Assembly: GCA_048938105.1 (NCBI GenBank)
Contig: JBHLMN010000015.1
Coordinates: 1 to 64,000 of the forward strand
Length of the DNA stretch: 64,000 nucleotides
Reading direction: 5' to 3'
DNA from: Promethearchaeota archaeon
Lineage (GTDB): Archaea > Asgardarchaeota > Heimdallarchaeia > Hodarchaeales > Hodarchaeaceae
Positions 14,003-33,676 of this stretch are shown here, in pieces (positions within the stretch are counted from its first letter, which is position 1; every line of letters begins with the position of its first letter). Made by a program: the position numbers and the translations under genes. Under the pieces are notes generated by a model. The model had not been told where the DNA came from, searched no databases, and was given only the letters and a program-made list of their open reading frames with translations.

Positions 14003-15934
14003 ATGCGATACACATTGACTGAAAAAAAGCTTGATTACGACAGTTTGGGTTTTAAAGCAGGGATAGAGATTCATGCACAGCTCTCCACTGAAAAGAAATT
14101 ATTTTGTTCCTGTTTGGCAACCTTGACAAATGAAAAACCACAAGCTATTGTTCAACGGAAATTTCGCCCAGTATTAGGTGAAATGGGGGTGTATGACCCA
14201 GCTTTACTAATTGAGTTTGAAAAAAAACACACAATTTTTTATGAAGTCTTTGATAGTGTCTGTACTTATGAATTAGATGAAACACCACCTTTTCCTATCA
14301 ATACTGAAGCTCTTTATGATTGCATAAAATTAGCAAAAATGATGAATTGTGAGATTGTTGAAGAAACAAATGTCTGCAGGAAAAATTATTTAGATGGATC
14401 TGTTCCGTGTGGTTTTCAAAGAACAGCTCTTATTGGTCATAGTGGACAGATTTCATTAATAAAAGATCCTTCAATGACTGAGGAAAAGAAATTAGCTATT
14501 TCTTGGATTTATATTGAAGAAGATGCCGCTCGTAAGGATAATGATCGAACAAAGGGTAAAAATATCTTTTTCAAATTAGATCGTTTAGGAATACCATTAA
14601 TTGAAATTGTAACAGATCATGGCTTAAACTCTCCTTCAGAAGTAGTTTCTGCAGCAAAAACATTAGGAATGTTGATCAAATCATCTGGAATAGTGCGTAA
14701 AGGATTAGGAAAAGTCCGACAGGACGTAAATGTGAGCATCAATGAAGGAGATCGGGTTGAGTTAAAGGGGATTCAACTACTTCAATTGATACCTATTGCT
14801 ATTGATATTGAAATAAAAAGACAACTGGGTTTGATATCTATTCAAAAGGAACTTCAAAGCCGAAACATTCAGCCTCAAGACATTCCTCTTCAGGTCTTAG
14901 ATGTTACAGAGGTTTTTTCAGACACTTCTTCTGATATAATTAAATCTGCCTTAAAACAAAAGAACCGAGTTTTAATTTTTCCTATTGCTGGATTTCAGGG
15001 ATTATTAAGTCAAGAATTGCAGCCAAATAAACGATTTGGAACAGAACTCTCCGATCGAGTTAAATCATTCACTAATTTAAAAGGAATAATCCATAGTGAT
15101 GAAGATTTAATGAATTATAGCTTTTCTGACAAAGAAATCTTAGAATTAACAGAAAAATGTCAGAAAAAAGTTTTTATTATAGTAATAGGAAAAAAAGAAG
15201 AAGCAAAAAGGGCTCTTTCCTTTGTACACGAGAGATTACTTGCTGCTTTCAATGGTGTTCATCAAGAAACTCGACATGTTGATGATGATGGAATTTCAAC
15301 ATTTACGAGAGATTTACATGGTAGGAGTAGACTGTATCCAGATACAGATCTTCCTCCCATAGTGATTGACTCAAATCGAGTTAAAAAGATAGAAGAAAAT
15401 CTACCTGAAAATTTTCTAACTCGGATTCAGCGCTTAAACAAACAATATTCTATTTCTAACGATTTGGCTGAAACTTTAATCTATGACGATAATGCTGACA
15501 TTTTTGAAGAATTAATACAAAAAGGGGCCCCTATCAAGGTAGTTATTACAACTTTAACTCAAACATTGACCGCTATCTCGAGGGAGGGGATTGATATCAA
15601 TAATATAACTGATACTCATTTATTAGAAATCTTTGAGGCACTAGGGTTGAATAAATTCTCCAAAGAAGCAATTCCAGATATCTTGGCAATAAAAGGTAAA
15701 GATCCAAAGAAATCATTACCAGATATCATGAGCGAGTTTGGTGGTGGAATGTCACAAAAAGAATTGGACAGCTTAATCCTTAAGGTTCTAAAATCCTCTC
15801 AAGATATTATAAGAGAACGTGGAATGAATGCATTCTCTCCCTTAATGGGACTAGTAATGAAAGAAGCTCGTGGGAGAATAGATGGAAAGATTGTAAGTGA
15901 AACTTTACGAAAACATCTCAGAAAACAAGCTTAA
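14003..15934 (+). CDS. gatE: Glu-tRNA(Gln) amidotransferase subunit E
   Basis: GIEIHAQL, KLFCSC, DGS..GFQRT, LDRLGIPLIEI, RQDVNVSI and RLYPDTD motifs. Confidence 0.95.
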   Translation: MRYTLTEKKLDYDSLGFKAGIEIHAQLSTEKKLFCSCLATLTNEKPQAIVQRKFRPVLGEMGVYDPALLIEFEKKHTIFYEVFDSVCTYELDETPPFPINTEALYDCIKLAKMMNCEIVEETNVCRKNYLDGSVPCGFQRTALIGHSGQISLIKDPSMTEEKKLAISWIYIEEDAARKDNDRTKGKNIFFKLDRLGIPLIEIVTDHGLNSPSEVVSAAKTLGMLIKSSGIVRKGLGKVRQDVNVSINEGDRVELKGIQLLQLIPIAIDIEIKRQLGLISIQKELQSRNIQPQDIPLQVLDVTEVFSDTSSDIIKSALKQKNRVLIFPIAGFQGLLSQELQPNKRFGTELSDRVKSFTNLKGIIHSDEDLMNYSFSDKEILELTEKCQKKVFIIVIGKKEEAKRALSFVHERLLAAFNGVHQETRHVDDDGISTFTRDLHGRSRLYPDTDLPPIVIDSNRVKKIEENLPENFLTRIQRLNKQYSISNDLAETLIYDDNADIFEELIQKGAPIKVVITTLTQTLTAISREGIDINNITDTHLLEIFEALGLNKFSKEAIPDILAIKGKDPKKSLPDIMSEFGGGMSQKELDSLILKVLKSSQDIIRERGMNAFSPLMGLVMKEARGRIDGKIVSETLRKHLRKQA

Positions 15935-15955
15935 TAATAGGAAGCGACAATCAAG

Positions 15956-17305
15956 ATGTCAGAAGATAAATATACTGGATACAGAGGTTCCGCATTAAAC
16001 TGGTTGAAAAATCAAGATTTAGAAGTTTGGGATGAAATAGAGATTACCAATGATGGTTTCTCAATGAAAGGAGTAATCTTACCAAGGAGCGAACTTGCTA
16101 AGCCTAATTTTATAAGTCTGAAGTTATCTACTGGTTATAATATTGGATTTAATGTAAAGAAGGATCAAGATATCAAAAAGATTGGCCATTTCATAGGTAA
16201 ATACCGCATTCCAAAAGCCGACATTGCTCAAAATCCTGATCAACCCTTTATTCCTTTATTAGGTTGTGGAGGTACGATTGCTTCTCGTTTGGATTACCAA
16301 ACGGGAGGAACAATTCCAGCGTTGACTCCTGAGGAACTTTTCTCATCTTTTCCTGAAATTACCGAATTAGCTCGGATTGAAACAAGTCTTTTATTTGATA
16401 TTTTTTCAGAGAATATTTCCTTCGAACACTATATCAAAATTTTAACAGAAATTGAATTTTTAATTAAAAATAAAGCACCTCAAGGAATTGTATTGACACA
16501 TGGCACTGATACAATGGCATTTACTGCAGCTGCCCTCTCATTTTCAATCACAAACCCACCTATTCCCATCGTTATTACAGGCTCCCAAAGGTCTTCTGAT
16601 CGCCCTTCATCCGATTCATTCTTTAATCTTTATAATTCTGTATTATATGCAGCTTCTCCTCAAGCGAAGAAAGAAGTAGTTGTTATCATGCACGAAAAGT
16701 CGTCAGACACTTCATGTGCTATTCATAGAGGTACAAGAGTCCGAAAAATGCATAGTAGTCGAAGAGACACCTTTAAGACGATTGGAGGTAGTCCATTAGG
16801 TAGAATTACCGAAGGAAAGATAGAATATGCGATGGAGGATGAAAATCTCTCAATAAATGCCGAATTGAAAAATGAATCTTATCGGATCACAAAAAATTTT
16901 GAAGAAAAGGTTGGTCTAATTTACCATTATCCAGGCATTCAACCAGAGGTGCTTGATTTCTATATCGAAACTGGATATAAAGGAATTGTAATAGCTGGGA
17001 CTGGACTTGGCCACATCTCATCTAATTTAATACCTACAATTGAAAAAGCAATTGAGAAAGGAATGATTGTAGTAATGACTACACAATGTCTGCACGGATT
17101 TACAGCTCTCTCGGTTTATGAAAGTGGAAGGCAACTCCAAAGAGCTGGTGTGATTCCTGTATTCAACATGCTGCCAGAAACTGCTTATATTAAGCTCGCA
17201 TATCTCTTAGGAAACTATCGAAAAGCAGAGAAAATTAAACTTTTAATGTCACAAAATCTTAAAGGAGAAATTACAACCCGTGAAAAGTTCCTAGAATTCC
17301 ATTAA
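15956..17305 (+). CDS. gatD: Glu-tRNA(Gln) amidotransferase subunit D
   Basis: GGTIASRLDY, HGTDTM, GSQRSSDRPSSD and RKMHSSRRD motifs. Confidence 0.95.
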   Translation: MSEDKYTGYRGSALNWLKNQDLEVWDEIEITNDGFSMKGVILPRSELAKPNFISLKLSTGYNIGFNVKKDQDIKKIGHFIGKYRIPKADIAQNPDQPFIPLLGCGGTIASRLDYQTGGTIPALTPEELFSSFPEITELARIETSLLFDIFSENISFEHYIKILTEIEFLIKNKAPQGIVLTHGTDTMAFTAAALSFSITNPPIPIVITGSQRSSDRPSSDSFFNLYNSVLYAASPQAKKEVVVIMHEKSSDTSCAIHRGTRVRKMHSSRRDTFKTIGGSPLGRITEGKIEYAMEDENLSINAELKNESYRITKNFEEKVGLIYHYPGIQPEVLDFYIETGYKGIVIAGTGLGHISSNLIPTIEKAIEKGMIVVMTTQCLHGFTALSVYESGRQLQRAGVIPVFNMLPETAYIKLAYLLGNYRKAEKIKLLMSQNLKGEITTREKFLEFH

Positions 17306-18939: not shown

Positions 18940-20967
18940 ATGAAAAGGATGTCTAGTTTGGATATTTATGCCATTTCGAGGGAATTACAGGGGCTAGTAG
19001 GTTATAGAGTCGCTAATATCTATCGTGATTCAGCAGAAAAATATTTCCTTTTCAGATTCAAAGGTAAAGGCCCTTTTAAAGATCCCTTTCTCCTAATTGA
19101 GCCAGGAATACGATTACATTTGACAGAGGTAAAACATCCTGTTCCAGAGAGACCCTCTGACAAAATTATGAGTTTACGAAGTCATCTTAAAGGAACTGAA
19201 GTGATTGGGATTCGTCAAGTCGACTTTGATAGAATAGTAGAAATCAAGTTTAGAGGAAAACAGGAATATAGAGTTTATGTTGAGATTTTTGGGAATCGTC
19301 CAAATTTCGTGGTTGTTGGGAATCAAAAGGTAATTTCCGCACTATGGTATAAGAAAATGCGCCATCGTGATGTTTTACCAGGAAAAGAATACGAACTTCC
19401 GCCAAGTCGGGGAAAATCAATATTAGAATTGAAAAACGACGAAATTGCTCAAGTTATCAAGGCTGATGAAGATGAGGAAATTGTTCGGACATTAGCTCGA
19501 AAAGTTGGGGGAGGAGGAGAGCTAATGGAGGAAGTACTGGCGCGAGCTGGAATTTCTAAAAAGAAAAAAAATAAAGAAATCAGTAATGAAGAGATTAATG
19601 GAATTATAAAATCTACTAGGAATATTAAGAAAGATTTGAAAGAATTGAAACCTTCAGTGGTTCTAGACACAAATGAAAAACCAAAATCTTTTCACCCTAT
19701 TGACTTCAAATCTATATCAGAAAAAAAAAGATATTTCGATAGTTTTTCTCATGTTTTAGATTTTTATTATATGAATGTGTCCCCTATAATCTCTGTTGAG
19801 CTTAAACAATATGATCAGAGAAAAAAGAAGCTACTTAAGGTTTTGGAGGCACAAAAACAGACTCTCGAGGGATTTAAGAAAAAGAAAAGTCATTATAAGG
19901 ATCTAGGGGATCGAATTTTTCTTCAATTAAATGAGATAGACGAATTATTATCAACTATAGTTGCAGCTCGAAAAAAAAACATCAGTTGGTTAGAAATTCA
20001 GGATAAACTGAAAATTGCTAAGGAACAAGGAATATCTTCAACGAAGATTCTAGAGGAGATTTATCCAGAGCGGGGTACCATTTCACTCAATCTTAACTCT
20101 GAAATTGTTGAAGTAAACTTACGAAAATCTGCAACTGAGATTGCAAACGAGTATTATCAGCGTGCAAAAAAGGCGGCTCGTAAAATAACACCTGCTAATA
20201 AAGCTATACTTGAAACGAAAAGGAAAATTGACCTTTTATCTAAGAATCTTTCAGAAGAAAAGAAGATAGAAAGCATTACATTGAAACGAAGGAAAAGAAA
20301 ATGGTATGAAAAATATCATTGGACGTATACTCAGAATGGATTTCTAATAATAGGTGGAAAGGACATCTCTAGTAACGAGGAAATAGTAAAACGACACATG
20401 AAGGAAAACGACATCTTTTTTCATGTAGAATTACGTGGAGCTCCCTATACCATTTTAATTTGTGATTCCAGTGAAAAAAACATTAAAGAACAAGATTTTG
20501 CTGATGCAGCACTTTTAGCTGCTGCTTTTTCGAGTGGTTGGAAAGCTGGATATGGAGCTGTTGACGTTTATTATGTTCCAGCAAACAGCGCAAGTTTTTC
20601 AGCACCAAGTGGTGAATATATCCCAAAGGGAGGAATAATAATTCGAGGCACACGAAAATACATTAGAGGAGTAATAATGGCTTTAGCGATCGGAATTCAA
20701 GTTGATGAATTCAATGCAAAAGTTATTTACGGATCTGAGAAAAATATTCGCTCACAAAGTCCCATTACAATAATCATTAAACCTGGTTCAAAATCAAAAG
20801 GTAAGATTGCTAAACAAATCCATCAGATTTTCATAGAAAAAGCAGTTCATCCAGAAGATAAGGCTAAAATAAAGGCAATTGACTTGAATGAATTTGTCCA
20901 AAGTATTCCACATAACTCAATAATCTCTAGAGTGGAATATGCAAATTTAGAGGAGAAGGACAATTAA
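18940..20967 (+). CDS. rqcH: Ribosome quality-control factor RqcH (NEMF/Rqc2/FbpA family)
   Basis: MSSLDI start, QVDFDRI, WYEKYHW, GGKD..SNE and APSGEYIPKG motifs. Confidence 0.92.
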   Translation: MKRMSSLDIYAISRELQGLVGYRVANIYRDSAEKYFLFRFKGKGPFKDPFLLIEPGIRLHLTEVKHPVPERPSDKIMSLRSHLKGTEVIGIRQVDFDRIVEIKFRGKQEYRVYVEIFGNRPNFVVVGNQKVISALWYKKMRHRDVLPGKEYELPPSRGKSILELKNDEIAQVIKADEDEEIVRTLARKVGGGGELMEEVLARAGISKKKKNKEISNEEINGIIKSTRNIKKDLKELKPSVVLDTNEKPKSFHPIDFKSISEKKRYFDSFSHVLDFYYMNVSPIISVELKQYDQRKKKLLKVLEAQKQTLEGFKKKKSHYKDLGDRIFLQLNEIDELLSTIVAARKKNISWLEIQDKLKIAKEQGISSTKILEEIYPERGTISLNLNSEIVEVNLRKSATEIANEYYQRAKKAARKITPANKAILETKRKIDLLSKNLSEEKKIESITLKRRKRKWYEKYHWTYTQNGFLIIGGKDISSNEEIVKRHMKENDIFFHVELRGAPYTILICDSSEKNIKEQDFADAALLAAAFSSGWKAGYGAVDVYYVPANSASFSAPSGEYIPKGGIIIRGTRKYIRGVIMALAIGIQVDEFNAKVIYGSEKNIRSQSPITIIIKPGSKSKGKIAKQIHQIFIEKAVHPEDKAKIKAIDLNEFVQSIPHNSIISRVEYANLEEKDN

Positions 20968-21018: not shown

Positions 21019-21675
21019 TCACATAATATCATCATCTGTAGATTGATCTTCTTCTGATTGGGGTTCTAAACATGCTGGACATAATGTATAACCATTTGTT
21101 GTTTTAAGTGTGTCCGAATAATTGCCGCAATCATCACAGAAACCTTCAAATTTGACAGAATCACTGTTATTATCGTCAGTTAGTTTTTTAGAAATAGTTC
21201 CTATAATAAGACGTTCCCTGTGAATTCGAAGTAAGCCTGGAGCAAATTTCAGTATATCGTTTGTTGAAACGATCCCCAAAGGTTGAGAAAGATCATTATC
21301 TTTGACCACTAAAATGCGTTCAATGTTTTCTTGAGCCATGATTAACATTGTATTCTCTAAGGTTTCATCCGCAGAAACATAAGAAACAGGTTTACTCATG
21401 ACATCATCAACAATAACAATTCCCGGGTCTAAAGCACGACCTACTACGCGATTGATAATATCTCCCTTGGTGATAATTCCTTCAATTTCGCTATTTTTAA
21501 TAATGATAGAACCTACCTGATTCTCCGCCATCAATTTTGCTGCTTCTGCCACAGGTTGGTTACTTGGCATTGATATTATCCCAATATTTTGTTTCGACAC
21601 ACTCCCTGTTGTCAAAGTTTTTAGTAGATTACCTATTAAAACCTCTCTTTCGTTATCAATCAACCTGTTAATCAC
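21019..21675 (-). CDS. Tandem CBS-domain protein with C-terminal Zn-binding motif
   Basis: GIITKGDI, VMSKPV and GIVSTNDIL motifs; CDDCG...CPAC. Confidence 0.85.
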   Translation of the reverse strand: MINRLIDNEREVLIGNLLKTLTTGSVSKQNIGIISMPSNQPVAEAAKLMAENQVGSIIIKNSEIEGIITKGDIINRVVGRALDPGIVIVDDVMSKPVSYVSADETLENTMLIMAQENIERILVVKDNDLSQPLGIVSTNDILKFAPGLLRIHRERLIIGTISKKLTDDNNSDSVKFEGFCDDCGNYSDTLKTTNGYTLCPACLEPQSEEDQSTDDDIM

Positions 21676-21913: not shown

Positions 21914-24900
21914 TTAAAAGAGTTTTGTTGGACGAGGGCCCTTATCAAATAATAGACTTTTGTTCAATTCAATCAATTCAATCCAAGATTGACAATATTC
22001 AGAAATTTCTGTATTATATCTGTCTCTTAGTTGCTGAATTATTTGCATATATCTTAAAACCCAACCTTCTGATAAAGTCAGTCCAATATTCTGTCGGTGA
22101 CAAACTGGACATTTTGAAAGAGGGATGCGTCGAAAGGTAGTATTGCATGTATTACATCGTACGGGTTGTTGAAAGAAACGAGTCAAAGAAGTCGTAATTT
22201 TTGGCAAAAAATCGTTTTCTAAAATATTATCAACAAATTCTCCTTCCTTTACACCCCGAATACGGCTAAGAACCCTTAATTCCGTTTCTATTTTTGAGAC
22301 TATTTTACTCTCACGAAAACGATTCTCGAAATTATATTGAGAAATATTATCAATCGTATGGAATTTTAGTAAAGGAGGCGCAAGATATGACCTTTTATAG
22401 GACATTAATTCCTCTTTTAAGGGATTTTTGTATAAGTTTTGATAAAACATAAGATTCATTGGTATAGAATCATAATCTGCATAGACTGACGTGTCATCCC
22501 ATTTATCAGAAAGATTAATTATAGATGGTACATCCATTGTCCCCCCACGTGATGCCGGTATGAACTCTGTAGAAAAATTAAGCAATACATCTAGTAATAA
22601 AGTCATTGAGTCAACATCTCCATTACAATTACGAGTTTTTAATTGATGCCAAAGAGGATGGGCGTAAGTAACATTATTTTCAGTATAACCAATTATTCTA
22701 CCTATCACAGCTACCATCGAAAACGGTGATAAACCCACAATTAATAAGCCTACAATATCTTTAAGAGAATTTATTCTATAATACGGCGAAAGGTCATACA
22801 AAATACCTAATTCATCATCAATGAACTTAGACAAATTAACAAGAAAATCTCCTGCTGTTTTGCTCACTATTACATCATAAGGATTGATTTCAATTAACTG
22901 ATTCTTTTTTGTTAGATCATTTCCATCAACATCATGAGCATAACCCAATCTCAAGAGGTCGTCAATAGAGATATGGATTTCCTCGGGGGTAAAGTGGGTG
23001 AGATGCGCATTAGTTTGATCAAAACGGCTTGTTCCGTCCTTATAAACAAAAGTTTTGTGTTTTGCACGTAATATACCTTTGGTAATATGTTCTGGTATTC
23101 GATTCTTGCTGTTGAGAAAGGAAACTCCTTTAACTTTTTTCAAATTAATGGGTCCAGCCTTTTGGAGGCTAGATTCTAATAAACTTGCTACATCTATGGG
23201 TTTAATTCTTGCAGGAAAAGCATATTGTCCACATTCTCGACATATTTGCGTTTTAGAAATGTGGCCTTTTTTGCAAACATATTGTTGCTTTGTTTTCTGT
23301 TGGCATTTCTGACAATATGAAAAAAATGTAAATTCTTCACACGTTTCACAAAATCTTTCTGAAACCTGAATATCCACACTAGTAGTATTTTTGACTTTTA
23401 ATAGATTTTTTTGAGTGCCACCATGAGAACCAATAGGAAAAAGAATATGTGCTGGCGGATTTACATGTCGTGGTTCCGCTTTTTCAACTCGAATGACCTT
23501 TAATCCTATCCTTCTCTGACAAGAAGATCTTATAGGAATCTTAGAAAGCATTTGAATCAATTTTTCTATTTCTATTGGGATTGATGATTTTGAAAGGATC
23601 CCAGTTAATTGGTCCTCTTTTCCTCGTAATGCGTGAATAAATGGTTGAAATCGTTCTGTTCGAATATTATCATTGAGAATAGTAAAGGGGACACCTAAAT
23701 GCTTAAGAATATCCTTTACATCATCATCATTAGGAAGTGTGTTATCATTGGAGTTTTTAAGCTTCTGAATTAGCCTTATTAGATCACTTATAGCAATTTC
23801 ATTCCAATTAAAAGAATAATAGGGATGTATAGGTACATTTGTCATGGTACTTAAATTAACAGCGATTTCTGGAGACGGATGATGACGGGTTGGTTCTGTT
23901 AGCAAATCCTCTAACTTTTTAAGGGAAATCTTCAAACTTATGGCAAAACCTTCTATCGATCTCATTTTAGTGCAAATATAATGTTTGATTTCCTGACTCC
24001 ACCATTCTTCTGTCCAAGCAGACAATTCAATAGTTTCTGTGGCAGGAATATCATCAGGAGAGAGTAAAATATCTCCCATTTCCCAAATCTGCACCACTTG
24101 ATTTTCCACATCACGAATTCTCGCTAATGATTCAATTCTTTCGAAAGAACCATCCAACAATTCAACAGTAGGACCTGATAAAGTGGAAACTGGAAATATT
24201 GTTAGTGGTCGATCCATAAAATCGATTTTAACGTTTGTCCCTGGAGAGAGCATTTCCGTAAGGTACATTGTTACAGGATGGATTCCAGCTGCACCTTGAC
24301 TGGTATTGCGTGAAATCCCATATCTTAACCTAAAACCTCCAGGTTTTTTCGATATTGAGAGTAAAGGTTGTGTTCCACGAACTTCATGTCTCCCAAAATC
24401 GTGTTTCTTACGTTTTATCCCATTAAAAGACGGTTTTAACCAGTGCCATTCAGGAATCCCTGATGTCAATCGGTGATTTGCGATTGAATTTATATTTTCA
24501 ATTATTTTATTAAAAGCTACACACATACCCATTCGAAGTTTATTAGTCATGTTTGGTAAATTTCTATAATTCTTTACTTCAATTCGTTCATATGCTTCTC
24601 CAGAGATCTCAACACCAATGTTTTGAAGGAGAAATTTGATTAAATCCTTTCTTAAATCTTGAAACCGATCATCCATTTTAAAATAAATTTCTAATTCTTC
24701 AATATATCGGCCTAGCATCTCTGGGGAAGGATTAAAGCGATTTAAGTGTAGTATATGTCGAATATAGTCAGCTATGAGAACAACTAACCCAATAATCTCT
24801 CCAGTAGTATACCGTATTGTATTAGAAAAATAAATCGTTAAATGATTAGATTTAGATCCAATAGAAACCTTTGGAATGCTTTCTTGTGGAACAGAGATTA

Positions 24901-25237
24901 ATCCCTGACTTAAGATAACCAATGCGCTGTGTAATGCTAATAATATTAGATTCTCACGGGAATCTTTAACAAATCGGCCATTAACAATTTGTTTGGCAAT
25001 ATCTGCTGCGAGAAGTAGAGGATTTTCATGATATGAAAGATTTTCAGGGAGATATTCCTCTAATCTAGGGATATTCAGAATTGCAGCGATTTTTGCTTCT
25101 GAAGAATAGGTAAGTTTGGCTTCTATATTGGTGTGAGGATCTAGTTTGAGAGCTCTAGCTTGTGTAGCAATATTGATTTGAGTTTCAAGAATTTTTTTGA
25201 TGTTTTTTATGTATTCATGAAACTCTTTCTCAATCAT
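21914..25237 (-). CDS. DNA polymerase D large subunit (DP2) homolog, divergent and probably catalytically inactive
   Basis: GGFRLRYG, EEWW, LFPIG, KGILRAK, KDGTSRFD, YAHP, LLLDVLLNFS and RGGTMD motifs plus Zn fingers; the catalytic motif reads TRNCNGDVD instead of RRNCDGDED. Confidence 0.9.
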   Translation of the reverse strand: MIEKEFHEYIKNIKKILETQINIATQARALKLDPHTNIEAKLTYSSEAKIAAILNIPRLEEYLPENLSYHENPLLLAADIAKQIVNGRFVKDSRENLILLALHSALVILSQGLISVPQESIPKVSIGSKSNHLTIYFSNTIRYTTGEIIGLVVLIADYIRHILHLNRFNPSPEMLGRYIEELEIYFKMDDRFQDLRKDLIKFLLQNIGVEISGEAYERIEVKNYRNLPNMTNKLRMGMCVAFNKIIENINSIANHRLTSGIPEWHWLKPSFNGIKRKKHDFGRHEVRGTQPLLSISKKPGGFRLRYGISRNTSQGAAGIHPVTMYLTEMLSPGTNVKIDFMDRPLTIFPVSTLSGPTVELLDGSFERIESLARIRDVENQVVQIWEMGDILLSPDDIPATETIELSAWTEEWWSQEIKHYICTKMRSIEGFAISLKISLKKLEDLLTEPTRHHPSPEIAVNLSTMTNVPIHPYYSFNWNEIAISDLIRLIQKLKNSNDNTLPNDDDVKDILKHLGVPFTILNDNIRTERFQPFIHALRGKEDQLTGILSKSSIPIEIEKLIQMLSKIPIRSSCQRRIGLKVIRVEKAEPRHVNPPAHILFPIGSHGGTQKNLLKVKNTTSVDIQVSERFCETCEEFTFFSYCQKCQQKTKQQYVCKKGHISKTQICRECGQYAFPARIKPIDVASLLESSLQKAGPINLKKVKGVSFLNSKNRIPEHITKGILRAKHKTFVYKDGTSRFDQTNAHLTHFTPEEIHISIDDLLRLGYAHDVDGNDLTKKNQLIEINPYDVIVSKTAGDFLVNLSKFIDDELGILYDLSPYYRINSLKDIVGLLIVGLSPFSMVAVIGRIIGYTENNVTYAHPLWHQLKTRNCNGDVDSMTLLLDVLLNFSTEFIPASRGGTMDVPSIINLSDKWDDTSVYADYDSIPMNLMFYQNLYKNPLKEELMSYKRSYLAPPLLKFHTIDNISQYNFENRFRESKIVSKIETELRVLSRIRGVKEGEFVDNILENDFLPKITTSLTRFFQQPVRCNTCNTTFRRIPLSKCPVCHRQNIGLTLSEGWVLRYMQIIQQLRDRYNTEISEYCQSWIELIELNKSLLFDKGPRPTKLF

Positions 25238-25243
25238 TTCATC

Positions 25244-25963
25244 TCACGAAAGAATTTGAACCCCATTGTTTAAAGTAACATTGAGGACCCCTAGATTTTC
25301 TAGATTACTTCTCCCTTCAAGGTAATAAATTCCAGTCTGATCTGGACTTACAATGGGAATAACACGACTAGTGCTATTGAAGATATGTATTGCTGCAGCG
25401 TTAATGTATTCAAGTTGATTTCCTTTACTTTGTTGAATTAAAATACGATTATTTTGGATTTCTGCGCGACCAACAAAGACAATAGTAAAAGATTCATCAA
25501 TGGTGAATGCAGATGATACAGAACTTATCATCAATTTGAATTCTGCATAGATTTCACTTTTGTAAACAGCCTCATCAGAGATATTATCATATGGTGGTCG
25601 TTTTGCAAAGATATTGAAGTTATCAGTACGCAATTGGACTTCCAAATTGACCCCACGGGTGAAATAGAAGTCTCCCATTCCTGCCAAGAAATCCTCAATT
25701 TTAATTTTCGCTATACTAGCACTAAAAATATTGGTATTATTTTTGCTATGCTCAGCTAGAATTAATTCTAAATAATTTTGGATCTCACGTTTCGAATCCA
25801 AGTATGGCTCTCTTAATGATTCGCGATCAAATTCGAGTCGTTCAGCTCCAAGATTCATCAAAGCTGCTGTCATTGTCACAACATAGACTGCAATCAACAT
25901 TGTAGCTAATATGAACATTTGACCTCGGTGACTCTTCGTTCGTATGGATCCTAGAAACCTCAT
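25244..25963 (-). CDS. Type IV pilin-like protein (class III signal peptide)
   Basis: KSHRG|QMFILATMLIAVYVV: basic leader, G-Q cleavage site, hydrophobic stretch. Confidence 0.72.
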   Translation of the reverse strand: MRFLGSIRTKSHRGQMFILATMLIAVYVVTMTAALMNLGAERLEFDRESLREPYLDSKREIQNYLELILAEHSKNNTNIFSASIAKIKIEDFLAGMGDFYFTRGVNLEVQLRTDNFNIFAKRPPYDNISDEAVYKSEIYAEFKLMISSVSSAFTIDESFTIVFVGRAEIQNNRILIQQSKGNQLEYINAAAIHIFNSTSRVIPIVSPDQTGIYYLEGRSNLENLGVLNVTLNNGVQILS

Positions 25964-26476
25964 CTAAAATTTCTCCCATAAATACAATTGAACAAGAAAT
26001 TGAGTGAAATAATAACCATAGGCAGCAGAAGTAAAAGAACCTAAGTGATAGTTTGCTACAATCCCCTCTCCACTTTGCTGTATTGCTGCAATCGCTGTTG
26101 GAGAGCCAATATGGCTAAGGTAATTTGGATCTATGGTGCCATTATTAATTTCGTGAGCAATTAATGCATAATCAATATTATCTGAGACTGTAATGGAAAT
26201 ATATTCATCTAATTGATTTCTGTAGTAAGTATACTCAGCTTTATGGTTATAATCATCATAAAGGTATATTACAGGTCTTAATATCCCTGCTTCATCAGCA
26301 GCTATAAGTATATCTGTAGCTGATTGATCCAAACTTGTAAGATTGGAGTAGGGTGATAGTGTTTGGTTTGTTGCATTAATCAAGAGAATAGCGAGAACTA
26401 ACATTAAGGCTACTGAAACAAGCGTTTCTGCGATTTGAAGTTGGCCTCTATGGATATGTTCTCGGTTTTTTCGCAT
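25964..26476 (-). CDS. Type IV pilin-like protein (class III signal peptide)
   Basis: HRG|QLQIAETLVSVALMLVLAILL. Confidence 0.75.
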   Translation of the reverse strand: MRKNREHIHRGQLQIAETLVSVALMLVLAILLINATNQTLSPYSNLTSLDQSATDILIAADEAGILRPVIYLYDDYNHKAEYTYYRNQLDEYISITVSDNIDYALIAHEINNGTIDPNYLSHIGSPTAIAAIQQSGEGIVANYHLGSFTSAAYGYYFTQFLVQLYLWEKF

Positions 26477-26480
26477 TAGC

Positions 26481-27647
26481 TTATTTACTCCATAATGTAA
26501 GTTGGCATCTCATCAATGTCCCTCGAACGATGATTGGATATGGTTTTGATTGCATTGATTTTATACTATCAGTAAGAATTTCCTTACCAAATATATGATA
26601 AAATATCCCATTAGTTGAATCACGATCCAAAATTGTAGGATAAGTTCCTATTCCTACTCGATATTCATCATTGATCTTAGCGATACTGAAGAAAGCGACT
26701 AGTCCCTCATTAGGAATTGAAACAATTTCATTTCCCACAAAAGCTGTAGATAAGTCTATTGTTTTATTTAAATAGTTTGAAGTACTGGTTTGATAAATAA
26801 TAGTGAGAAAATGTGACTCAGGAGTCATCTCTAGAATATCTGTTATTGATAGACTGGAAGAATTAAATCCTCCTCCCCAAACCACAGTATTTGAAGATGG
26901 ACCGATAATAACTGTTTCAGAAGTGGGATCATGGAATCCCCAGTTCATTCCCCAGAGAGGACCTTTTTCTACAATGATAAATACAAAGTGCTCACCCTCT
27001 GGGTCGTCTCTGGTGGGATCTGACAGTTGGAGGCTAGTATCTCCATTTGAATCGGTAATTGTTGATCCTTCTGAAATCACATCTCCATTAGTTAGATCAA
27101 TGGTAAAGAATGTAACCTGAGCGTTAGAAATGGGAGTGTTGTACGAGTCTGTAACCTTAACTTGAGCAAAATCTAATGTGGAAACAGTTATCTTTGGTTC
27201 TAATAAAGGGTAAAATCCTAATTGGAAATCATACTCCCTTTCAAGGCCTACTGTCTCTTTAAGAGTAGAATAATCATACATTTTGAATCCAGAATAAGGT
27301 GACAGAGAAGTAAAGGTGCCAGTAACGAGTCGGGCAATCTTTGCGCTATCTAAAGTCAGAAATGATTGTAAATTTGAATCTGCAAGTCCAAATGTTCTTG
27401 GGAGCTCCAATAAATACCCCCAATTTGGGTCTCCTTCTTCCAAAAGTAATTTACGTCCAAAAATATCCATTTCTTCATAAGTTATGGTTTCAATAGTATT
27501 TGTTCTAATACTGGATTGGACAGTAAAAATAATGAGAATCAATTGTGATAACATGAGTAGGAAAAGAAAAAGACTCACTACGAAGTCGACGGCTCTAATC
27601 TGTCCAGATCGTCTTTTTTTAAGTTTTGAAAACATTTTATTGCACAT
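26481..27647 (-). CDS. Large minor pilin / adhesin-like protein (class III signal peptide)
   Basis: KKRRSG|QIRAVDFVVSLFLFLLML, GDPNW motif, and a beta-rich Ig-like segment (VTDSYNTPISNAQVTF...TDSNG). Confidence 0.72.
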   Translation of the reverse strand: MCNKMFSKLKKRRSGQIRAVDFVVSLFLFLLMLSQLILIIFTVQSSIRTNTIETITYEEMDIFGRKLLLEEGDPNWGYLLELPRTFGLADSNLQSFLTLDSAKIARLVTGTFTSLSPYSGFKMYDYSTLKETVGLEREYDFQLGFYPLLEPKITVSTLDFAQVKVTDSYNTPISNAQVTFFTIDLTNGDVISEGSTITDSNGDTSLQLSDPTRDDPEGEHFVFIIVEKGPLWGMNWGFHDPTSETVIIGPSSNTVVWGGGFNSSSLSITDILEMTPESHFLTIIYQTSTSNYLNKTIDLSTAFVGNEIVSIPNEGLVAFFSIAKINDEYRVGIGTYPTILDRDSTNGIFYHIFGKEILTDSIKSMQSKPYPIIVRGTLMRCQLTLWSK

Positions 27648-27678
27648 TTATTTTCCTGAAAATTTCCATATAAGGATG

Positions 27679-28134
27679 CTAAGAAATAGCCTCATTACTT
27701 GAAGTACCAACATTGGCTACTTCAAGTTGGATCACTATTTCTTGAATTCGATCCTTTAATTCGAGCATTGTTGTTTCTAACTCTGTTAATTGGAGGCCTT
27801 TCTCCAGAAGAGAGGTAGCCTGAGATATTAATTCATCTGCTTTCTGAGTTTTCTCTGTTTTTAATGTTGAAGTTAATTCTGTTAAGTTATTAAGCTTATT
27901 CATCATCTCTGTGACAGTTTCTTCTATTTCAGAGATTCTACTCTCAATAGGGGCCAAATTCACTTCAACAGGGCCACTTGTTGGGACAGAAGTGGAGGAA
28001 AAAGATGGAGTTTTGGGAGCTGGGCCTCCTGATCCCATACCCTGAACCATTAGAAACTCCATGTTGGTGAGTTTGTCTTCTAGAGCTGAAACCTTTTCTA
28101 ATAATTCTGATAACATTTTTTCTTCTTTTCCCAT
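27679..28134 (-). CDS. Soluble coiled-coil protein within the pilus cluster
   Basis: Heptad Leu/Ile pattern interrupted by a G/P/S linker; 11-31 nt from its neighbours. Confidence 0.7.
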   Translation of the reverse strand: MGKEEKMLSELLEKVSALEDKLTNMEFLMVQGMGSGGPAPKTPSFSSTSVPTSGPVEVNLAPIESRISEIEETVTEMMNKLNNLTELTSTLKTEKTQKADELISQATSLLEKGLQLTELETTMLELKDRIQEIVIQLEVANVGTSSNEAIS

Positions 28135-28145
28135 GAGTCATAACC

Positions 28146-29150
28146 TCAAGTGATCGATTCTAAAAACTTTATAATCTCTGGTCCAATAATTACTATTTTA
28201 AAAAGTATATAGCAGAGAATTAAAAGGAAACAGGAATGTCGTAATCCAATTTTAGCATCTCCCTCACCCATTTTACCAGCAATGAGACCTGCAAATGCAG
28301 CTTCGATAACCATCATATGAAAAAAGATTATTTGTAAACCTGCTACACAAAATGGTAATGCTGCCGTGGGTTCCTGTTCTGCTCTCACAGAATCTACAAT
28401 CTGATATGCTAATCCTTGAAAAAAAGTAGTAAGCAAAATAATCATTACAAAAGCAAAAATAATGAACGAAACATAAATAATCCATGTATAGGGTTTCATC
28501 GCTGCAAGTCGTTCTCTTTTTAATCCTAATATTTCTGATACATGAGTGTGAGCTGATTCAAAGACATCCTCAATAGCCCCTCCAGAGCGTTCTGCTTCTA
28601 AAATTAATAGTGAAGTTCTTTTCATTAGTGTTGTATCAGCAACTTCTGTTAAAGATCGCAAAGTTCTACTAAAAGGAATTCCCCAGCTGATTTTAGCTGC
28701 CATTTTTTTCAATTCTGGCGTTAATTCACCATATTGATGTTTTGAAGCTTCTAGAATTGCTCTTGGTAAAGGAAGGCCAGTCTTTTGAGCATCAGAAATT
28801 TCACGCAGTAAGGAAGGAATATGATCATCAATGTTATTACGCCATTTTCGATCAGAATGATAGATCCAAGCTGGGAGAAAGATTAAAACAAAAATTGTTA
28901 AAAATGTGAAATCTAAAATGTCGAAGATACCAAATGAAATGAATGAATCCATACTCACTTCTCTTACAGAATATAGATATGAATCCATGTCAGCAGGATC
29001 TGAACTGAGAGAAGGAGGGTTTTCAAGATAGTAAACGATGTGTTCTAGAAGAGGAATGTAAAATGAAATAGAAATAATAAAACCAACTACACAGAGAATA
29101 CCTGAAATAATCCAGATACGTTTTTCACGTTTTGGTGTTAACTTTCCCAT
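28146..29150 (-). CDS. Type IV pilus platform protein (TadC/GspF family)
   Basis: LREISDAQKTGLPL, YGELTPELKK..WGIPF, EAERSGG and AGLIAGKMGEG motifs. Confidence 0.9.
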   Translation of the reverse strand: MGKLTPKREKRIWIISGILCVVGFIISISFYIPLLEHIVYYLENPPSLSSDPADMDSYLYSVREVSMDSFISFGIFDILDFTFLTIFVLIFLPAWIYHSDRKWRNNIDDHIPSLLREISDAQKTGLPLPRAILEASKHQYGELTPELKKMAAKISWGIPFSRTLRSLTEVADTTLMKRTSLLILEAERSGGAIEDVFESAHTHVSEILGLKRERLAAMKPYTWIIYVSFIIFAFVMIILLTTFFQGLAYQIVDSVRAEQEPTAALPFCVAGLQIIFFHMMVIEAAFAGLIAGKMGEGDAKIGLRHSCFLLILCYILFKIVIIGPEIIKFLESIT

Positions 29151-29172
29151 TGCGATAAAACCTCTTTTAATG

Positions 29173-30099
29173 TTAGATTTCGCGTGAAATTGTAGATATC
29201 AATAAAATCATTATCATCAACAATATAGGCATAATAAGGTAAGCTAATAGTAACATAAATACCACAAGCCCCACCACAGCATCCTTTGCAATAACAGAAA
29301 GGATAGCAGCGATTACTACAAAGAATAAAGGAGCTACTACCCCTAAAATCATAAATATCTCAGATAACACACCTAATTGATCAATAAACTCTTTTGTCTC
29401 CTCCTCCTTTAACTTCATTAAAGCTTTGGCTTCAGCAGAGAGGTAGAAGGTTAAATCTCCTCCACTCGTAATAGTAGCCGACATTCCATCCAAGAATTTG
29501 GAGAATCTTTCAGAGGGAGATCTATTACTTGCAGTTCTTAAAGCCTTTAGAATGTCATACCCAAAGATCTCAATGTCTCGTGTAATTCTCTTACTCTCCT
29601 TAGAAATTTCTGGAGCAACTGAGGCTTCGCCTGCAAGAGAATAGAACAATCTATTAGGAGGGACGCCTGAACTTGACATGGCAGAGAGATACGATGCTGT
29701 TGAGGGTAGCCCTGCCTCTATTAGAATTTTACGATCGGTTGCTTTCATTTGGGGCCAATATAAAAATGGTAAATATGCTAGAAGGCTACATATAACCCCA
29801 ATGATCACCCCAATTAGGATGGATGGGATCAACAGAGTTGTTAAATCTGCAGTTGGATTTGAAGCTTGAAATAGTAGAGTACTTCCCACAGTCACTAAGA
29901 AAAAAGAGAAAAAACCAACAAGTATTGAACTGATAATAGCGCTTCCTAAGTAAGCTCGTATGGAAATATCCATACCTGCTTTTTTTAAACTTCTATTAAG
30001 TCTATCAAAACTTCCCTTTTCGATCCATGATTCTAAAAATTTACCAAATCTGAGATAACCGACTCTTCTAATAACCTTACTCAAAAATAGACTCTCCAA
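29173..30099 (-). CDS. Type IV pilus platform protein (TadC/FlaJ family)
   Basis: LKKAGM, MSSSGVPP, FGYDILKAL, SPSERF and TITSGGDL motifs. Confidence 0.9.
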   Translation of the reverse strand: MESLFLSKVIRRVGYLRFGKFLESWIEKGSFDRLNRSLKKAGMDISIRAYLGSAIISSILVGFFSFFLVTVGSTLLFQASNPTADLTTLLIPSILIGVIIGVICSLLAYLPFLYWPQMKATDRKILIEAGLPSTASYLSAMSSSGVPPNRLFYSLAGEASVAPEISKESKRITRDIEIFGYDILKALRTASNRSPSERFSKFLDGMSATITSGGDLTFYLSAEAKALMKLKEEETKEFIDQLGVLSEIFMILGVVAPLFFVVIAAILSVIAKDAVVGLVVFMLLLAYLIMPILLMIMILLISTISREI

Positions 30100-30109
30100 G
30101 TGATCTTGT

Positions 30110-31618
30110 TTAAATTGTCTTCAATTCACGCTTTGCTCGATCAACTGTTTCCAACACATTTTGATAATAACTGTTTATAACTTCAGAAACTTGGGTATAA
30201 TGAGCTAACTTCTTCTTAACCATCCATCTTAAAATTGTCTTTCGTCTTTCAAGTTCATCAAAAGCTTGGGCCTCTGTTAATCCTTGCGCTTCTTGAATTC
30301 CTTCTAGTGCATAGGATCGTCCATAATTAATGAATGCATCTTCACGAGCATTCCATCCAAAAACCTTGTTAGTAATCAATTCAGTAGTTACAGGGTCAAT
30401 TCCTACGATTTCTGTACACTCAATCACTCGTCGTACCTGTTTGTCCCCACGACGTACTTTACGAAGAACGAGAACGAGGTTTAATGTTTGAATTAACGTT
30501 CGTGGGATATTCATGGGTTCATTCTCTAAACGTCTTATTGTGCCAGTTACACTGTCGCCATGGATCGTACCCATTCCAGTGTGCCCAGTAGCCATTGCTT
30601 GAAAGAGGTTATAAGCTTCAGCACCTCGCACTTCTCCAACAAAAAGATAATCTGGTCTTTGACGAAGTGCTGCACGCAGTAAATCATACATTGAAACTTC
30701 TCCTCGACGTGTACCATCTGCTTCACGTCCCCCGTAACCCTCTCGAGCAACTGCAGGAATCCAGTTCTCATGAGGGATATGAAGTTCTGCTGTGTCTTCA
30801 ATCGAAACAATTTTCATTCCTGGTCGGATGAACATTGCTAGACTATTAAGTAAAGAAGTTTTTCCTGCTGCTGTTCCTCCTGCAATGAGAACAGAATTCC
30901 TATTTTCTAAGACATACCATAAGAATGCAGCTAAATCTTCATCTATAGTATTAAACATAACCATATCAGTAATGGTTAATGGATCAGAACGGAATTTTCG
31001 TATAGTGAATGTGCTTCCACGTTGAGTAACTTCACGTCCATATGTTAACTGAAGACGACTGCCATCTGGTAACGCAGCATCAAGTAAAGGTCTTGCTACA
31101 CTGATATGTCGTCCAGCTCGTTGAGCTAACTTTATGATAAAAGCATCTAACAGATTTTCTTCCTCAAATTTCACATTTGTTTGAATACTTTCAAATTTCC
31201 GATGCCAAATATAAACTGGAATTCCAACACCATCACAGGAGATGTCCTCCACATTATGATCCTTTAACATTGCATCTATCGGCCCAAATCCGACAAAATC
31301 ACGAGTAATATGGTAATTGATTTTATCAAAAGTTTTTTCATCTAGTTTTAACCCATAATCTTTGGCAATTCCAATTACTTTTGATCGAAGGTAATCGCGT
31401 GCCACTTCAGGATTCTTAAGCACATTAAAATCAACATCCAATTCCTCCTCGAGAATATTTTTTATCATATCCAAAATATCATTCTCTTTTGTGCTTAAAG
31501 GAACTTCAACCACGGTATATTTTGTTTGTTTTGTTTCAGGATCGGTTGCAACCAACGCATAACTAAAGGGGGGGATTAAAGGATATGTTTCGCGAATTAA
31601 GCTACTTGATTCGGACAT
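30110..31618 (-). CDS. Type IV pilus assembly ATPase (VirB11/FlaI/TadA family)
   Basis: Walker A GGTAAGKTS, SIEDTAEL, LRQRPDYLFVGEVRG and QAMATGH motifs. Confidence 0.95.
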   Translation of the reverse strand: MSESSSLIRETYPLIPPFSYALVATDPETKQTKYTVVEVPLSTKENDILDMIKNILEEELDVDFNVLKNPEVARDYLRSKVIGIAKDYGLKLDEKTFDKINYHITRDFVGFGPIDAMLKDHNVEDISCDGVGIPVYIWHRKFESIQTNVKFEEENLLDAFIIKLAQRAGRHISVARPLLDAALPDGSRLQLTYGREVTQRGSTFTIRKFRSDPLTITDMVMFNTIDEDLAAFLWYVLENRNSVLIAGGTAAGKTSLLNSLAMFIRPGMKIVSIEDTAELHIPHENWIPAVAREGYGGREADGTRRGEVSMYDLLRAALRQRPDYLFVGEVRGAEAYNLFQAMATGHTGMGTIHGDSVTGTIRRLENEPMNIPRTLIQTLNLVLVLRKVRRGDKQVRRVIECTEIVGIDPVTTELITNKVFGWNAREDAFINYGRSYALEGIQEAQGLTEAQAFDELERRKTILRWMVKKKLAHYTQVSEVINSYYQNVLETVDRAKRELKTI

Positions 31619-31774
31619 CTATCTAAGACTCCTCTTTTTTTTTGTTAGATCTAGTAGATTTGTATTTTTCAAGTTCAATATTTTACTTAATCTAATATTT
31701 CTTAAAGATTATAATATTTAGGCTTTTCTATCAAATTAATGATGGTTATTTGTCAAGTTTACCTTAGCTAATAT

Positions 31775-32236
31775 CTATAAGATTGTTATTACAACTTTAT
31801 TTGCATCTCTCTCAATGTGTAAAGTAAGTAATGCCTTTATACTTTGAAATGACGATTCAGAAGTTTCAATTATGTATTTTGCTCCCACTGAGAAGGTGGT
31901 TAATTGGTTAATTTTCCCATCAGAGGAATAACCATGAAGTGTGACCTGATTATCGGTCGTATTGTAAATTTCAATATTATATTGAAATTTTTGGCCTAGT
32001 AGTATTGGTAGTTCTAACTGTTGATCAATCGTTTGATTATAGTCCGAGGAAAAAAGAAGTGTTTGCATAATTTGAGATTGTATTAAATCTAGAATTTGTG
32101 ACATTTCAATTTCTGCCAAATTTTCTCGAAATTGATCACTTAAAGTTGAGAACATGTTATTAGTAAGTAAGACCATACTAAGGCCTAAAATAAAGATGAT
32201 CATAAAGGTAATATATTGGGAAGCCATATTAAACAA
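31775..32236 (-). CDS. Pilin-like protein with an N-terminal hydrophobic helix
   Basis: MASQYITFMIIFILGLSMVLL followed by a helix and beta-rich body; no clear basic leader. Confidence 0.55.
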   Translation of the reverse strand: MFNMASQYITFMIIFILGLSMVLLTNNMFSTLSDQFRENLAEIEMSQILDLIQSQIMQTLLFSSDYNQTIDQQLELPILLGQKFQYNIEIYNTTDNQVTLHGYSSDGKINQLTTFSVGAKYIIETSESSFQSIKALLTLHIERDANKVVITIL

Positions 32237-32254
32237 CCATTATCATATTTTTCC

Positions 32255-33127: not shown

Positions 33128-33676
33128 GAAAAATCTGACATGAATAAGTTTAAAATGGGAAATAGTATGATTAGTCAAGTTAGATCCCTTTCTATCATTT
33201 TCTTCAACCAATAATCTCTATGAACAAGTCATACCTCAGGGATTTATTATTTAAGATTTTACGATTTAAGGATTTTTGTATTCCCAAGTAAAACATTAAA
33301 CTTTCAAATATAACCCTTCATAAGAGCATATATTTTCATATTTGTAACTAGTTCTGGAAAAAAGTTATTATCTGAGTTCATTTATATAGGTAACACTTGG
33401 TTTCTTTTAGTTGAACCAGAACATTTCTCTCGAACACAAAACTTCAGTTGACTTCGGTGGATAAGCCTAGAAAAAAAATATAAACACGGGCTCGTTATTA
33501 TCGCATTAATTCTGGTGAAGGAGCTTTTTGGTGGTAATTATCAAGACGAAATCATGTCAAATGATTTATAAAGGATAGTGAAGATAGATAACCCTGATTC
33601 AGTCATATTATTCTTAATTTCGTTATATTTATCAAAAGCAGAAAAGATTTAAGGGGTTCATGGGTTCAAAAAAATA

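What the first reader, a model, noticed from the sequence alone, without database searches (positions are those of the whole stretch)
21914..25237. Full-length PolD DP2 with a systematically eroded active site (pseudo-polymerase)
Seen: an uninterrupted 1107-aa ORF colinear with DP2 and retaining its Cys4-type Zn modules. Compared with the DP2 consensus as I recall it, several strongly conserved motifs are altered: AAKRRNCDGDED to QLKTRNCNGDVD (first Asp is now AAT/Asn at 22622-22624), LAPHTSAG to LSPFSMVA, GPIRSxGGT to NTIRYTTGE, ERPGKG to DFMDRP, and GxRMGRPEK to GLKVIRVEK. Established: the two Asp residues of the DxD in NCDGDED bind the catalytic Mg2+. Inference: an inactive paralog kept under selection for a structural or DNA-binding role, analogous to the inactivated polymerase modules of B-family enzymes such as the C-terminal half of Pol epsilon.
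Basis: partly seen in the sequence, partly recalled or inferred. Interest (0 to 1): 0.85.

Follow-up and report, generated by a model that had tools for sequence, protein, structure and literature searches.

The report
Polymerase-dead PolD subunit in Hodarchaeales
This Asgard archaeon (Hodarchaeales, among the closest known relatives of eukaryotes) keeps its only copy of the main archaeal DNA-copying enzyme intact and under selection although the enzyme's catalytic site is broken, most likely as a scaffold while a eukaryote-like polymerase does the copying; a 2020 paper noted this briefly for two related genomes.

Summary
Observation confirmed; the ORF is on the minus strand. It is a full-length DP2 (TM 0.79 to P. 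abyssi PolD). It is not a paralog: it is the only DP2 in a 99%-complete Hodarchaeales genome, and no second copy turned up in the 22 of 23 order genomes that have one. Four residues shown by mutagenesis to matter are changed (D956N, steric-gate H>F, primer-binding K>R, R>T). All 73 canonical DP2s keep five such residues; no Hodarchaeales DP2 keeps more than two, and 10 of 42 lack both aspartates. dN/dS is about 0.1. An intact Pol-epsilon-like PolB occurs in 22 of 23 order genomes and 0 of 59 other class genomes. DP1 keeps its catalytic His and six of seven metal ligands, and a model supports DP1 binding. Best reading: a polymerase-dead DP2 kept with DP1 as a replisome scaffold or nuclease partner, while B-family enzymes replicate. 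Kazlauskas 2020 already reported 'lack active DP2' for Heimdall B3/LC3; B3 appears to be this genus. This scan found the same thing in several other Hodarchaeales genomes. New member of a known but never-tested kind; moderate interest.

The parts
21914..25237 (-). DP2 (PolD large subunit) gene, 1107 aa, sole copy in the genome, polymerase site degraded
22610..22645 (-). Acidic (a) motif: N954 kept (N870), D956>N872 (AAT at 22622-22624), D958 kept (D874), first Arg (9N R960)>T868, E959>V875
   Evidence: roles from PMC7708050 and 10.1101/2023.08.09.552591
22709..22732 (-). Selectivity (s) motif: steric-gate His>Phe839 (22721-22723), Thr>Ser840
   Evidence: H931Y abolished activity in 9N PolD
24206..24229 (-). 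Basic (b) motif: minor Lys kept (K337), Arg>F340, critical primer-binding Lys>Arg343
   Evidence: PMC7708050 section 16
24797..24823 (-). KH-domain glycine-rich motif, rewritten; the N-terminal 270 aa lose 25 of 56 canonical invariants and gain order-specific invariants
23480..23506 (-). Conserved clamp-region motif (RMGRPEK in canonical DP2), altered
23231..23350 (-). Zn-I (Cys4: C630, 633, 642, 645) and Zn-II (Cys3His: C655, H659, C666, C669), retained
21917..22324 (-). C-terminal DP1-binding domain (aa 972-1107) with Zn-III (C1028, 1031, 1043, 1046; 22100-22156); exo-channel R1178>W1085, R1114>T1019; no canonical C-terminal PIP box

Best explanation
This is the vertically kept, single-copy DP2 of a Hodarchaeales archaeon that has lost DNA polymerase activity order-wide but is retained, full length and folded, as a non-catalytic subunit. 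SHOWN: single copy; loss of catalytic residues across the order; purifying selection; PolD fold; strict co-distribution with an intact Pol-epsilon-N-like PolB (group B10); DP1, Gins51, MCM, primase and PCNA present. MODELLED: the DP2 C-terminal domain docks on this genome's DP1. INFERRED: the DP1-DP2 heterodimer persists. DP2 stabilises DP1 and, through the DP1 N-terminal domain and Gins51, supports the CMG-like helicase and possibly DP1's 3'-5' nuclease. Synthesis is done by B-family enzymes, B10 being the likeliest replacement. In T. kodakarensis both DP1 and DP2 are needed to stimulate MCM-GINS in helicase and ATPase assays (PMC9023282), a function that would explain keeping the whole subunit.
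For: Sole copy. Five residues with mutagenesis support (D956, D958, steric-gate His, critical Lys, first Arg): 73 of 73 canonical DP2 have all five; full-length Hodarchaeales DP2 have 0 (9), 1 (24) or 2 (1). In PMC7708050, Asp>Ala abolishes activity, H931Y abolishes it, K398A cripples it and R960A limits it. 10 of 42 lack both Asp, yet that subclade has dN/dS 0.07-0.25; other pairs 0.09-0.14. Other Heimdallarchaeia examined have canonical motifs and a C-terminal PIP box. AlphaFold model: pLDDT 73.6, TM 0.79 to P. abyssi DP2. B10: 22 of 23 order genomes, 0 of 59 other class genomes, with polymerase motifs A, B, C and the CysX motif intact. DP1: metal ligands and catalytic His conserved except an invariant Asn>Glu, N-terminal domain kept. 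DP1 with DP2-CTD complex model: score 0.90, best of 3 controls 0.00; runs agree in at least 85% of contacts; partner pLDDT at least 77. The mark was reached by 58 of 80 solved complexes and 2 of 110 mismatched pairs, and the pass may come from memory of solved PolD.
Against: No biochemical test exists. The exact substitutions (D>N, H>F, K>R) were not assayed in the papers I could read. N954, D958, R961 and D960 remain in this copy, and one relative (P0010) has Asp back at 956. The C-terminal PIP/primase-binding motif is missing, so two known scaffold contacts (PCNA, PriL) may be lost. DP1 was not found with my queries in the two genomes of the second family (80-85% complete). DP1-GINS binding was not tested here. 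The B10 co-distribution is one evolutionary event, not 22; PolB1 and PolB3 could equally be the replicase.
Confidence: 0.7

Rival explanations
1. DP2 is still a weak or altered polymerase (for example Mn2+-dependent, repair or primer-length synthesis) using N954, N956, D958 and D960 as a remodelled metal site.
For: D958 kept in 32 of 42, D960, K959 and R961 in 42 of 42. The surrounding two-barrel region is well conserved (22 of 35 invariants kept). From memory, unverified (paper not held): some conservative Asp mutants of P. horikoshii PolD kept activity. Archaeal B2 polymerases were once wrongly called inactive (PMC7544198).
Against: 10 of 42 relatives lack both Asp with no rise in dN/dS. Three separate catalytic motifs are hit together. 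K959 is non-catalytic by mutagenesis. D960 is not among the reported Mg2+ ligands (N954, D956, D958).
Confidence: 0.12
2. The retained job is mainly nucleolytic: dead DP2 is the obligatory partner of an active DP1, giving a stand-alone 3'-5' exonuclease (proofreading in trans, repair or end processing) rather than a helicase tether.
For: DP1 keeps six of seven metal ligands, the catalytic His and an aromatic exo-channel residue; dN/dS 0.14-0.21. Kazlauskas 2020 says B3 DP1 might still be active. DP2 W1085 (invariant in 40 of 40, replacing R1178) touches DP1 near its active site in the model.
Against: DP1 Asn450>Glu in all 17 genus sequences aligned, and R499 lost. DP2 exo-channel residues R1114, R1178, P1107 and the KH loop are altered or variable. 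LC3 DP1 is reported as inactive (PMC7544198). This reading overlaps with the best explanation and is not exclusive of it.
Confidence: 0.25
3. Inactive paralog beside a canonical DP2.
For: None beyond the eroded motifs; the genome is a MAG with 65 contigs.
Against: One DP2 by protein search, Pfam family search, tblastn and six-frame motif scan in a 99.06%-complete genome. One DP2 locus per genome in 22 of 23 order genomes, including a 96%-complete single-contig genome.
Confidence: 0.02
4. Dead DP2 was co-opted into the type IV pilus-like operon upstream (DNA uptake or recombination with the divergent radA).
For: DP2 starts 6 bp after the last pilin-like gene. This adjacency is seen in all 17 genus loci where the upstream flank was held. 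radA lies divergently at 33677.
Against: The operon's ATPase is in 77 of 82 class genomes, and in two single-contig genomes it lies about 0.8-0.9 Mb from a canonical DP2. In the second Hodarchaeales family DP2 is also degraded but has other upstream neighbours. So inactivation is wider than the linkage.
Confidence: 0.05
5. A decaying pseudogene or assembly artefact.
For: Long branches, extreme in the second family; one relative has an in-frame TGA.
Against: Intact frame of 1106-1122 aa in 34 relatives down to 46% identity; dN/dS about 0.1; 65 order-specific invariant positions.
Confidence: 0.01

Closest known systems
Inactive DP2 of the 'Heimdall_B3/LC3-like' group (Kazlauskas et al. 2020, NAR, PMC7544198, section on second subunits, Fig. 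7, Fig. S16)
   Same: Same lineage. The B10 C-terminal sequence printed for B3_Heim in that paper's supplement matches genome G002 of this genus, whose DP2 is 53% identical to this one. Same combination: DP2 without an active site, divergent DP1 with motifs largely kept, B10 PolB with a C-terminal Zn finger.
   Different: That paper gives two genomes, a few sentences and a supplementary alignment (the figure image is not held). It reports no selection analysis, order-wide survey or mechanism. This copy keeps D958, whereas G002 has lost both aspartates.
Canonical PolD large subunit DP2 (P. abyssi, PDB 6HMS, 6T8H, 8PPT, 9F2A; TIGR00354)
   Same: Colinear, about 30% identity, same fold (TM 0.79), three zinc modules, DP1-binding C-terminal domain.
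   Different: a-, b- and s-motif catalytic residues changed, KH loop rewritten, no C-terminal PIP box, Zn-II is Cys3His, no intein.
Inactive C-terminal module of eukaryotic Pol epsilon (Pol2C) with Dpb2
   Same: Works like (inferred): a dead polymerase body ending in a homologous zinc C-terminal domain that holds the B/DP1 subunit and links to the CMG helicase, next to an active Pol-epsilon-N-type enzyme. The CTD fold matched human Pol epsilon CTD weakly (5VBN, E 0.027).
   Different: Pol2C is a dead B-family module fused to the active one; here the dead part is a D-family two-barrel protein on a separate gene. Feng et al. 2025 (PMC12680538) found no two-hybrid interaction between the Hodarchaeales PolB CTD and DP1.
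[quoted passage not shown]
   Same: PolD polymerase function replaced by PolB while DP1 is kept.
   Different: Those lineages lost DP2 or keep only its CTD fused to PolB (PMC7544198, PMC12680538); Hodarchaeales keep the whole dead subunit.

Membership tests
DP2 (PolD large subunit) protein family | Full-length homology with N-terminal, central and catalytic DP2 domains | tested here: met
   (TIGR00354 700.8, just under the 702 cut-off)
DP2 (PolD large subunit) protein family | Two-barrel PolD fold with zinc modules and DP1-binding CTD | tested here: met
Catalytically active PolD | a-motif NxDGD with both aspartates | tested here: not met
   N872 replaces D956
Catalytically active PolD | s-motif steric-gate His and b-motif critical Lys | tested here: not met
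   F839 and R343 (PMC7708050)
Catalytically active PolD | C-terminal canonical PIP / primase-binding motif | tested here: not met
   No PIP-like match in the last 25 aa of 34 full-length Hodarchaeales DP2; clear motifs in other Heimdallarchaeia. My pattern was insensitive (10 of 73 canonical), so a divergent internal PIP is not excluded.
Catalytically active PolD | Measured DNA polymerase activity | not testable with these tools
   needs a primer-extension assay
Heimdall_B3/LC3-type inactive DP2 | Hodarchaeales host, same genus as B3_Heim | tested here: met
   record titles and names; B10 tail match of G002 to B3_Heim
Heimdall_B3/LC3-type inactive DP2 | DP2 lacking an intact active site, no other DP2 | tested here: met
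Heimdall_B3/LC3-type inactive DP2 | Co-occurring B10 (Pol-epsilon-N-like) PolB with C-terminal Zn finger, and divergent DP1 | tested here: met
Pol epsilon C-terminal inactive module | Dead B-family fold fused to an active PolB | tested here: not met
   D-family fold on a separate gene; analogy only

The most novel reading that the evidence does not exclude
Dead DP2-DP1 and the Pol-epsilon-N-like B10 polymerase form a two-gene functional equivalent of eukaryotic Pol epsilon: DP1-DP2 tethers to GINS-MCM, and the rewired but newly conserved N-terminal/KH surface of DP2 recruits B10 for leading-strand synthesis. That would be a living intermediate of the PolD-to-PolB handover in the archaea closest to eukaryotes.
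Probability: 0.2. Interest if true: 0.85.

Novelty: new member of a known kind. Interest (0 to 1): 0.5.

Why it matters
How the archaeal PolD replicase was replaced by B-family polymerases while its small subunit and C-terminal domain were kept is an open question in the origin of eukaryotes. Hodarchaeales seem to show the halfway state: the catalytic site gone, the whole subunit still selected, and a Pol-epsilon-like PolB present only here within the class. It is testable with recombinant proteins. It also means that a DP2 profile hit in these genomes should not be counted as a working PolD: in the passages of a 2025 Asgard replisome survey that I searched (PMC12680538) the inactivation is not mentioned. 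The core observation is, however, in print since 2020 and was found repeatedly by this scan.

Tried and rejected
Translating the + strand gave only stops; the gene is on the minus strand. Searches for a second DP2 by protein, Pfam family, tblastn and motif scan were all negative. Shen et al. 2001 (Asp mutants of P. horikoshii PolD) is not held, so the effect of the exact D>N change rests on Ala mutants and memory. Fig. S16 of Kazlauskas 2020 is an image; only its legend was readable. The Sld5 Pfam model found no GINS, but the Gins51_C model did. Predicted DP1-interface residues are not more conserved than the rest of the CTD (0.77 vs 0.76, p 0.35), so conservation gives no extra support for the interface. 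No consistent PIP box was found in B10 orthologs. DP1 was not found in the two second-family genomes; incomplete genomes and high divergence make this inconclusive. No RNA holder listed, which says nothing about expression. Laying contigs from other runs listed no difference at 22622-22624, but the table was cut, so I rely on the orthologs instead. The DP2 tree (quick mode, long branches) shows Hodarchaeales DP2 as one group but cannot place it relative to other Heimdallarchaeia, so vertical descent is assumed, not shown. The DNA-uptake reading from the pilus operon was rejected. B10-DP2 and DP1-Gins51 complexes were not modelled (one job only).
Full report
The ORF. Positions 21914-25237 on the minus strand encode an uninterrupted 1107-aa protein. 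It matches the three Pfam DP2 domains, scores just under the TIGR00354 cut-off and aligns end to end with P. abyssi DP2. An AlphaFold model built on 42 relatives (mean pLDDT 73.6) superposes on P. abyssi PolD with TM 0.79. One correction: the second zinc module is Cys3His.

Host and copy number. The genome has 5.85 Mb and is 99.06% complete and 7.25% contaminated. Record titles of close relatives place it in Hodarchaeales. Protein search, Pfam search, tblastn and a six-frame motif scan find only this DP2. Of the 23 order genomes, 22 have one DP2 locus each, and the blank is 71% complete. So the gene is the ortholog, not a paralog.

Is it dead? Mutagenesis of Thermococcus 9N PolD (PMC7708050) defines three motifs. 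Alanine at either a-motif aspartate abolishes synthesis and alanine at the first arginine limits it. Alanine at the b-motif lysine cripples it, and the equivalent Lys-to-Arg change killed E. coli RNA polymerase. Tyrosine at the s-motif histidine abolishes activity. The Mg2+ ligands are N954, D956 and D958. This protein has D956>N872, R>T868, K>R343 and H>F839, and keeps D958. Across 73 canonical DP2s all five residues are present in every sequence; among 34 full-length Hodarchaeales DP2s, 9 have none, 24 have one and 1 has two. Ten of 42 lack both aspartates. In the second family of the order one DP2 has the same Asn and the other has lost the motif. Other Heimdallarchaeia examined have canonical motifs, often with an intein in the a-motif, and a C-terminal PIP box. 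Inactivity is an inference, but a strong one: three independent motifs are hit. The exact substitutions have not been assayed in the papers I could read.

Is it selected? Pairwise dN/dS is 0.09-0.14 for most pairs, for example 0.138 against the nearest genome, and 0.07-0.25 in the subclade lacking both aspartates; DP1 gives 0.14-0.21 (Nei-Gojobori). Of 220 columns invariant in canonical DP2, 125 are kept and 59 lost, and 65 positions are newly invariant in Hodarchaeales. Losses are heaviest in the N-terminal/KH region (25 of 56) and lightest around the zinc/clamp-2 region (3 of 37). The tree shows one Hodarchaeales group on a long stem. This is a change of constraint, not decay.

What replicates the genome? 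The genome has four PolBs. One, on contig C6 (1894 aa with an intein), is closest to Pol epsilon in the PDB, with exonuclease, A, B, C and CysX motifs and a C-terminal zinc finger. The polymerase and CysX motifs are intact in the 16 orthologs examined (one cut by its contig end). It is found in 22 of 23 order genomes and in 0 of 59 other genomes of the class, the same distribution as the degraded DP2. This is one evolutionary event and shows association, not cause. PolB1- and PolB3-like enzymes with intact motifs are also present.

What could dead DP2 do? DP1 lies next to cdc6 on another contig. In the genus it keeps six of seven metal ligands and the catalytic His, with an invariant Asn-to-Glu change, and it keeps its N-terminal domain. 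Gins51, MCM, primase and PCNA are present. A complex model of DP1 with the DP2 C-terminal domain scored 0.90 against a best control of 0.00, with runs agreeing in at least 85% of contacts and partner pLDDT at least 77. That mark was reached by 58 of 80 solved complexes and 2 of 110 mismatched pairs, and since PolD is solved the pass may reflect likeness only. In T. kodakarensis the DP1 N-terminal domain binds Gins51, and both DP1 and DP2 are needed to stimulate MCM-GINS helicase and ATPase (PMC9023282). That is a known role which needs the large subunit and could explain keeping 1100 residues. The exo-channel residues that DP2 contributes to proofreading (R1114, R1178, P1107) and the KH loop are altered, and the PIP/primase motif (PMC8096248) is missing, so DNA handling and PCNA or primase binding are doubtful. 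I put 0.7 on a dead scaffold with DP1, with the nuclease-partner variant overlapping it, and 0.12 on residual polymerase activity.

Neighbourhood. DP2 follows, after 6 bp, a type IV pilus-like operon (ATPase, two platform genes, pilin-like genes), with radA divergent at 33677. The linkage is conserved in the genus. However, the operon's ATPase is class-wide and far from DP2 in single-contig outgroup genomes, and the second family's degraded DP2s have other neighbours. I treat it as gene order, not function.

What is known. Kazlauskas et al. 2020 (PMC7544198) state that the Heimdall_B3/LC3-like group lacks active DP2, that B3 DP1 might still be active, and that B10 may have allowed this. The B10 tail printed for B3_Heim matches a genome of this same genus. 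Feng et al. 2025 (PMC12680538) propose that Hodarchaeales PolB gave Pol epsilon its N-terminal half and found no two-hybrid binding of its CTD to DP1; the searched text does not mention DP2 inactivation. Earlier agents of this scan reached the same reading on other Hodarchaeales genomes; I had formed it before looking, and their agreement is not independent evidence.

Verdict. The feature is real. The protein is a member of the DP2 family but not of active PolD, and a new member of the B3/LC3-type inactive DP2, a state that is published but never tested. Interest 0.5; it would rise to about 0.85 if dead PolD and B10 were shown to act together as a split Pol epsilon (probability about 0.2).

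Noticed in passing
window 25244-33211 (-), radA 33677-34762 (+): Type IV pilus-like operon (ATPase, two T2SSF platform genes, pilin-like genes with weak DUF7261/7262/7288/7289 hits) ending 6 bp before DP2, with radA divergent. The ATPase is 90-98% identical across the genus and present in 77 of 82 class genomes.
   Followed up: partly
L040:3392-9076 (G000 contig C6): Pol-epsilon-N-like B10 polymerase with a LAGLIDADG intein inserted inside polymerase motif C; the intein is present in some genus members and absent in most.
   Followed up: partly
L041:5889-7436 (G000 contig C18): DP1 convergent with cdc6; phosphoesterase motif III has Glu for Asn in all 17 genus sequences aligned and Asn in all 12 outgroup sequences.
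   Followed up: partly
P0010 (Logan contig, 76% identical): One Hodarchaeales DP2 has Asp at the 956 position while keeping the other inactivating changes; it is nested among Asn-bearing sequences, so a reversion or an error.
   Followed up: partly
L054 (G015), codon 238 of DP2: In-frame TGA where relatives have Gly, in a single-contig genome; probably a sequencing error, not checked.
   Followed up: no
L052 and L053 (second Hodarchaeales family): Far more divergent DP2s (22-25% identity, branch lengths 7.2 and 3.6), still long open frames; DP1 not found with my queries.
   Followed up: partly
window 14003-17305 (+): Adjacent genes that look like GatE and GatD (Glu-tRNA(Gln) amidotransferase), judged by sequence appearance only.
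   Followed up: no
window 18940-20967 (+) and 21019-21675 (-): NFACT/Rqc2-family gene and a CBS-pair protein with a C-terminal Cys4 motif; the CBS gene follows DP2 in all 19 other genus loci checked.
   Followed up: partly
window 2229-2930 (-): Small GTPase-like ORF (233 aa), typical of Asgard genomes; not examined.
   Followed up: no
L039:4268-8095 and G000 contig C52 (MCM): A PolB2-like polymerase carries an intein; MCM has a 1345-aa open frame with a split MCM domain, probably also intein-containing.
   Followed up: no
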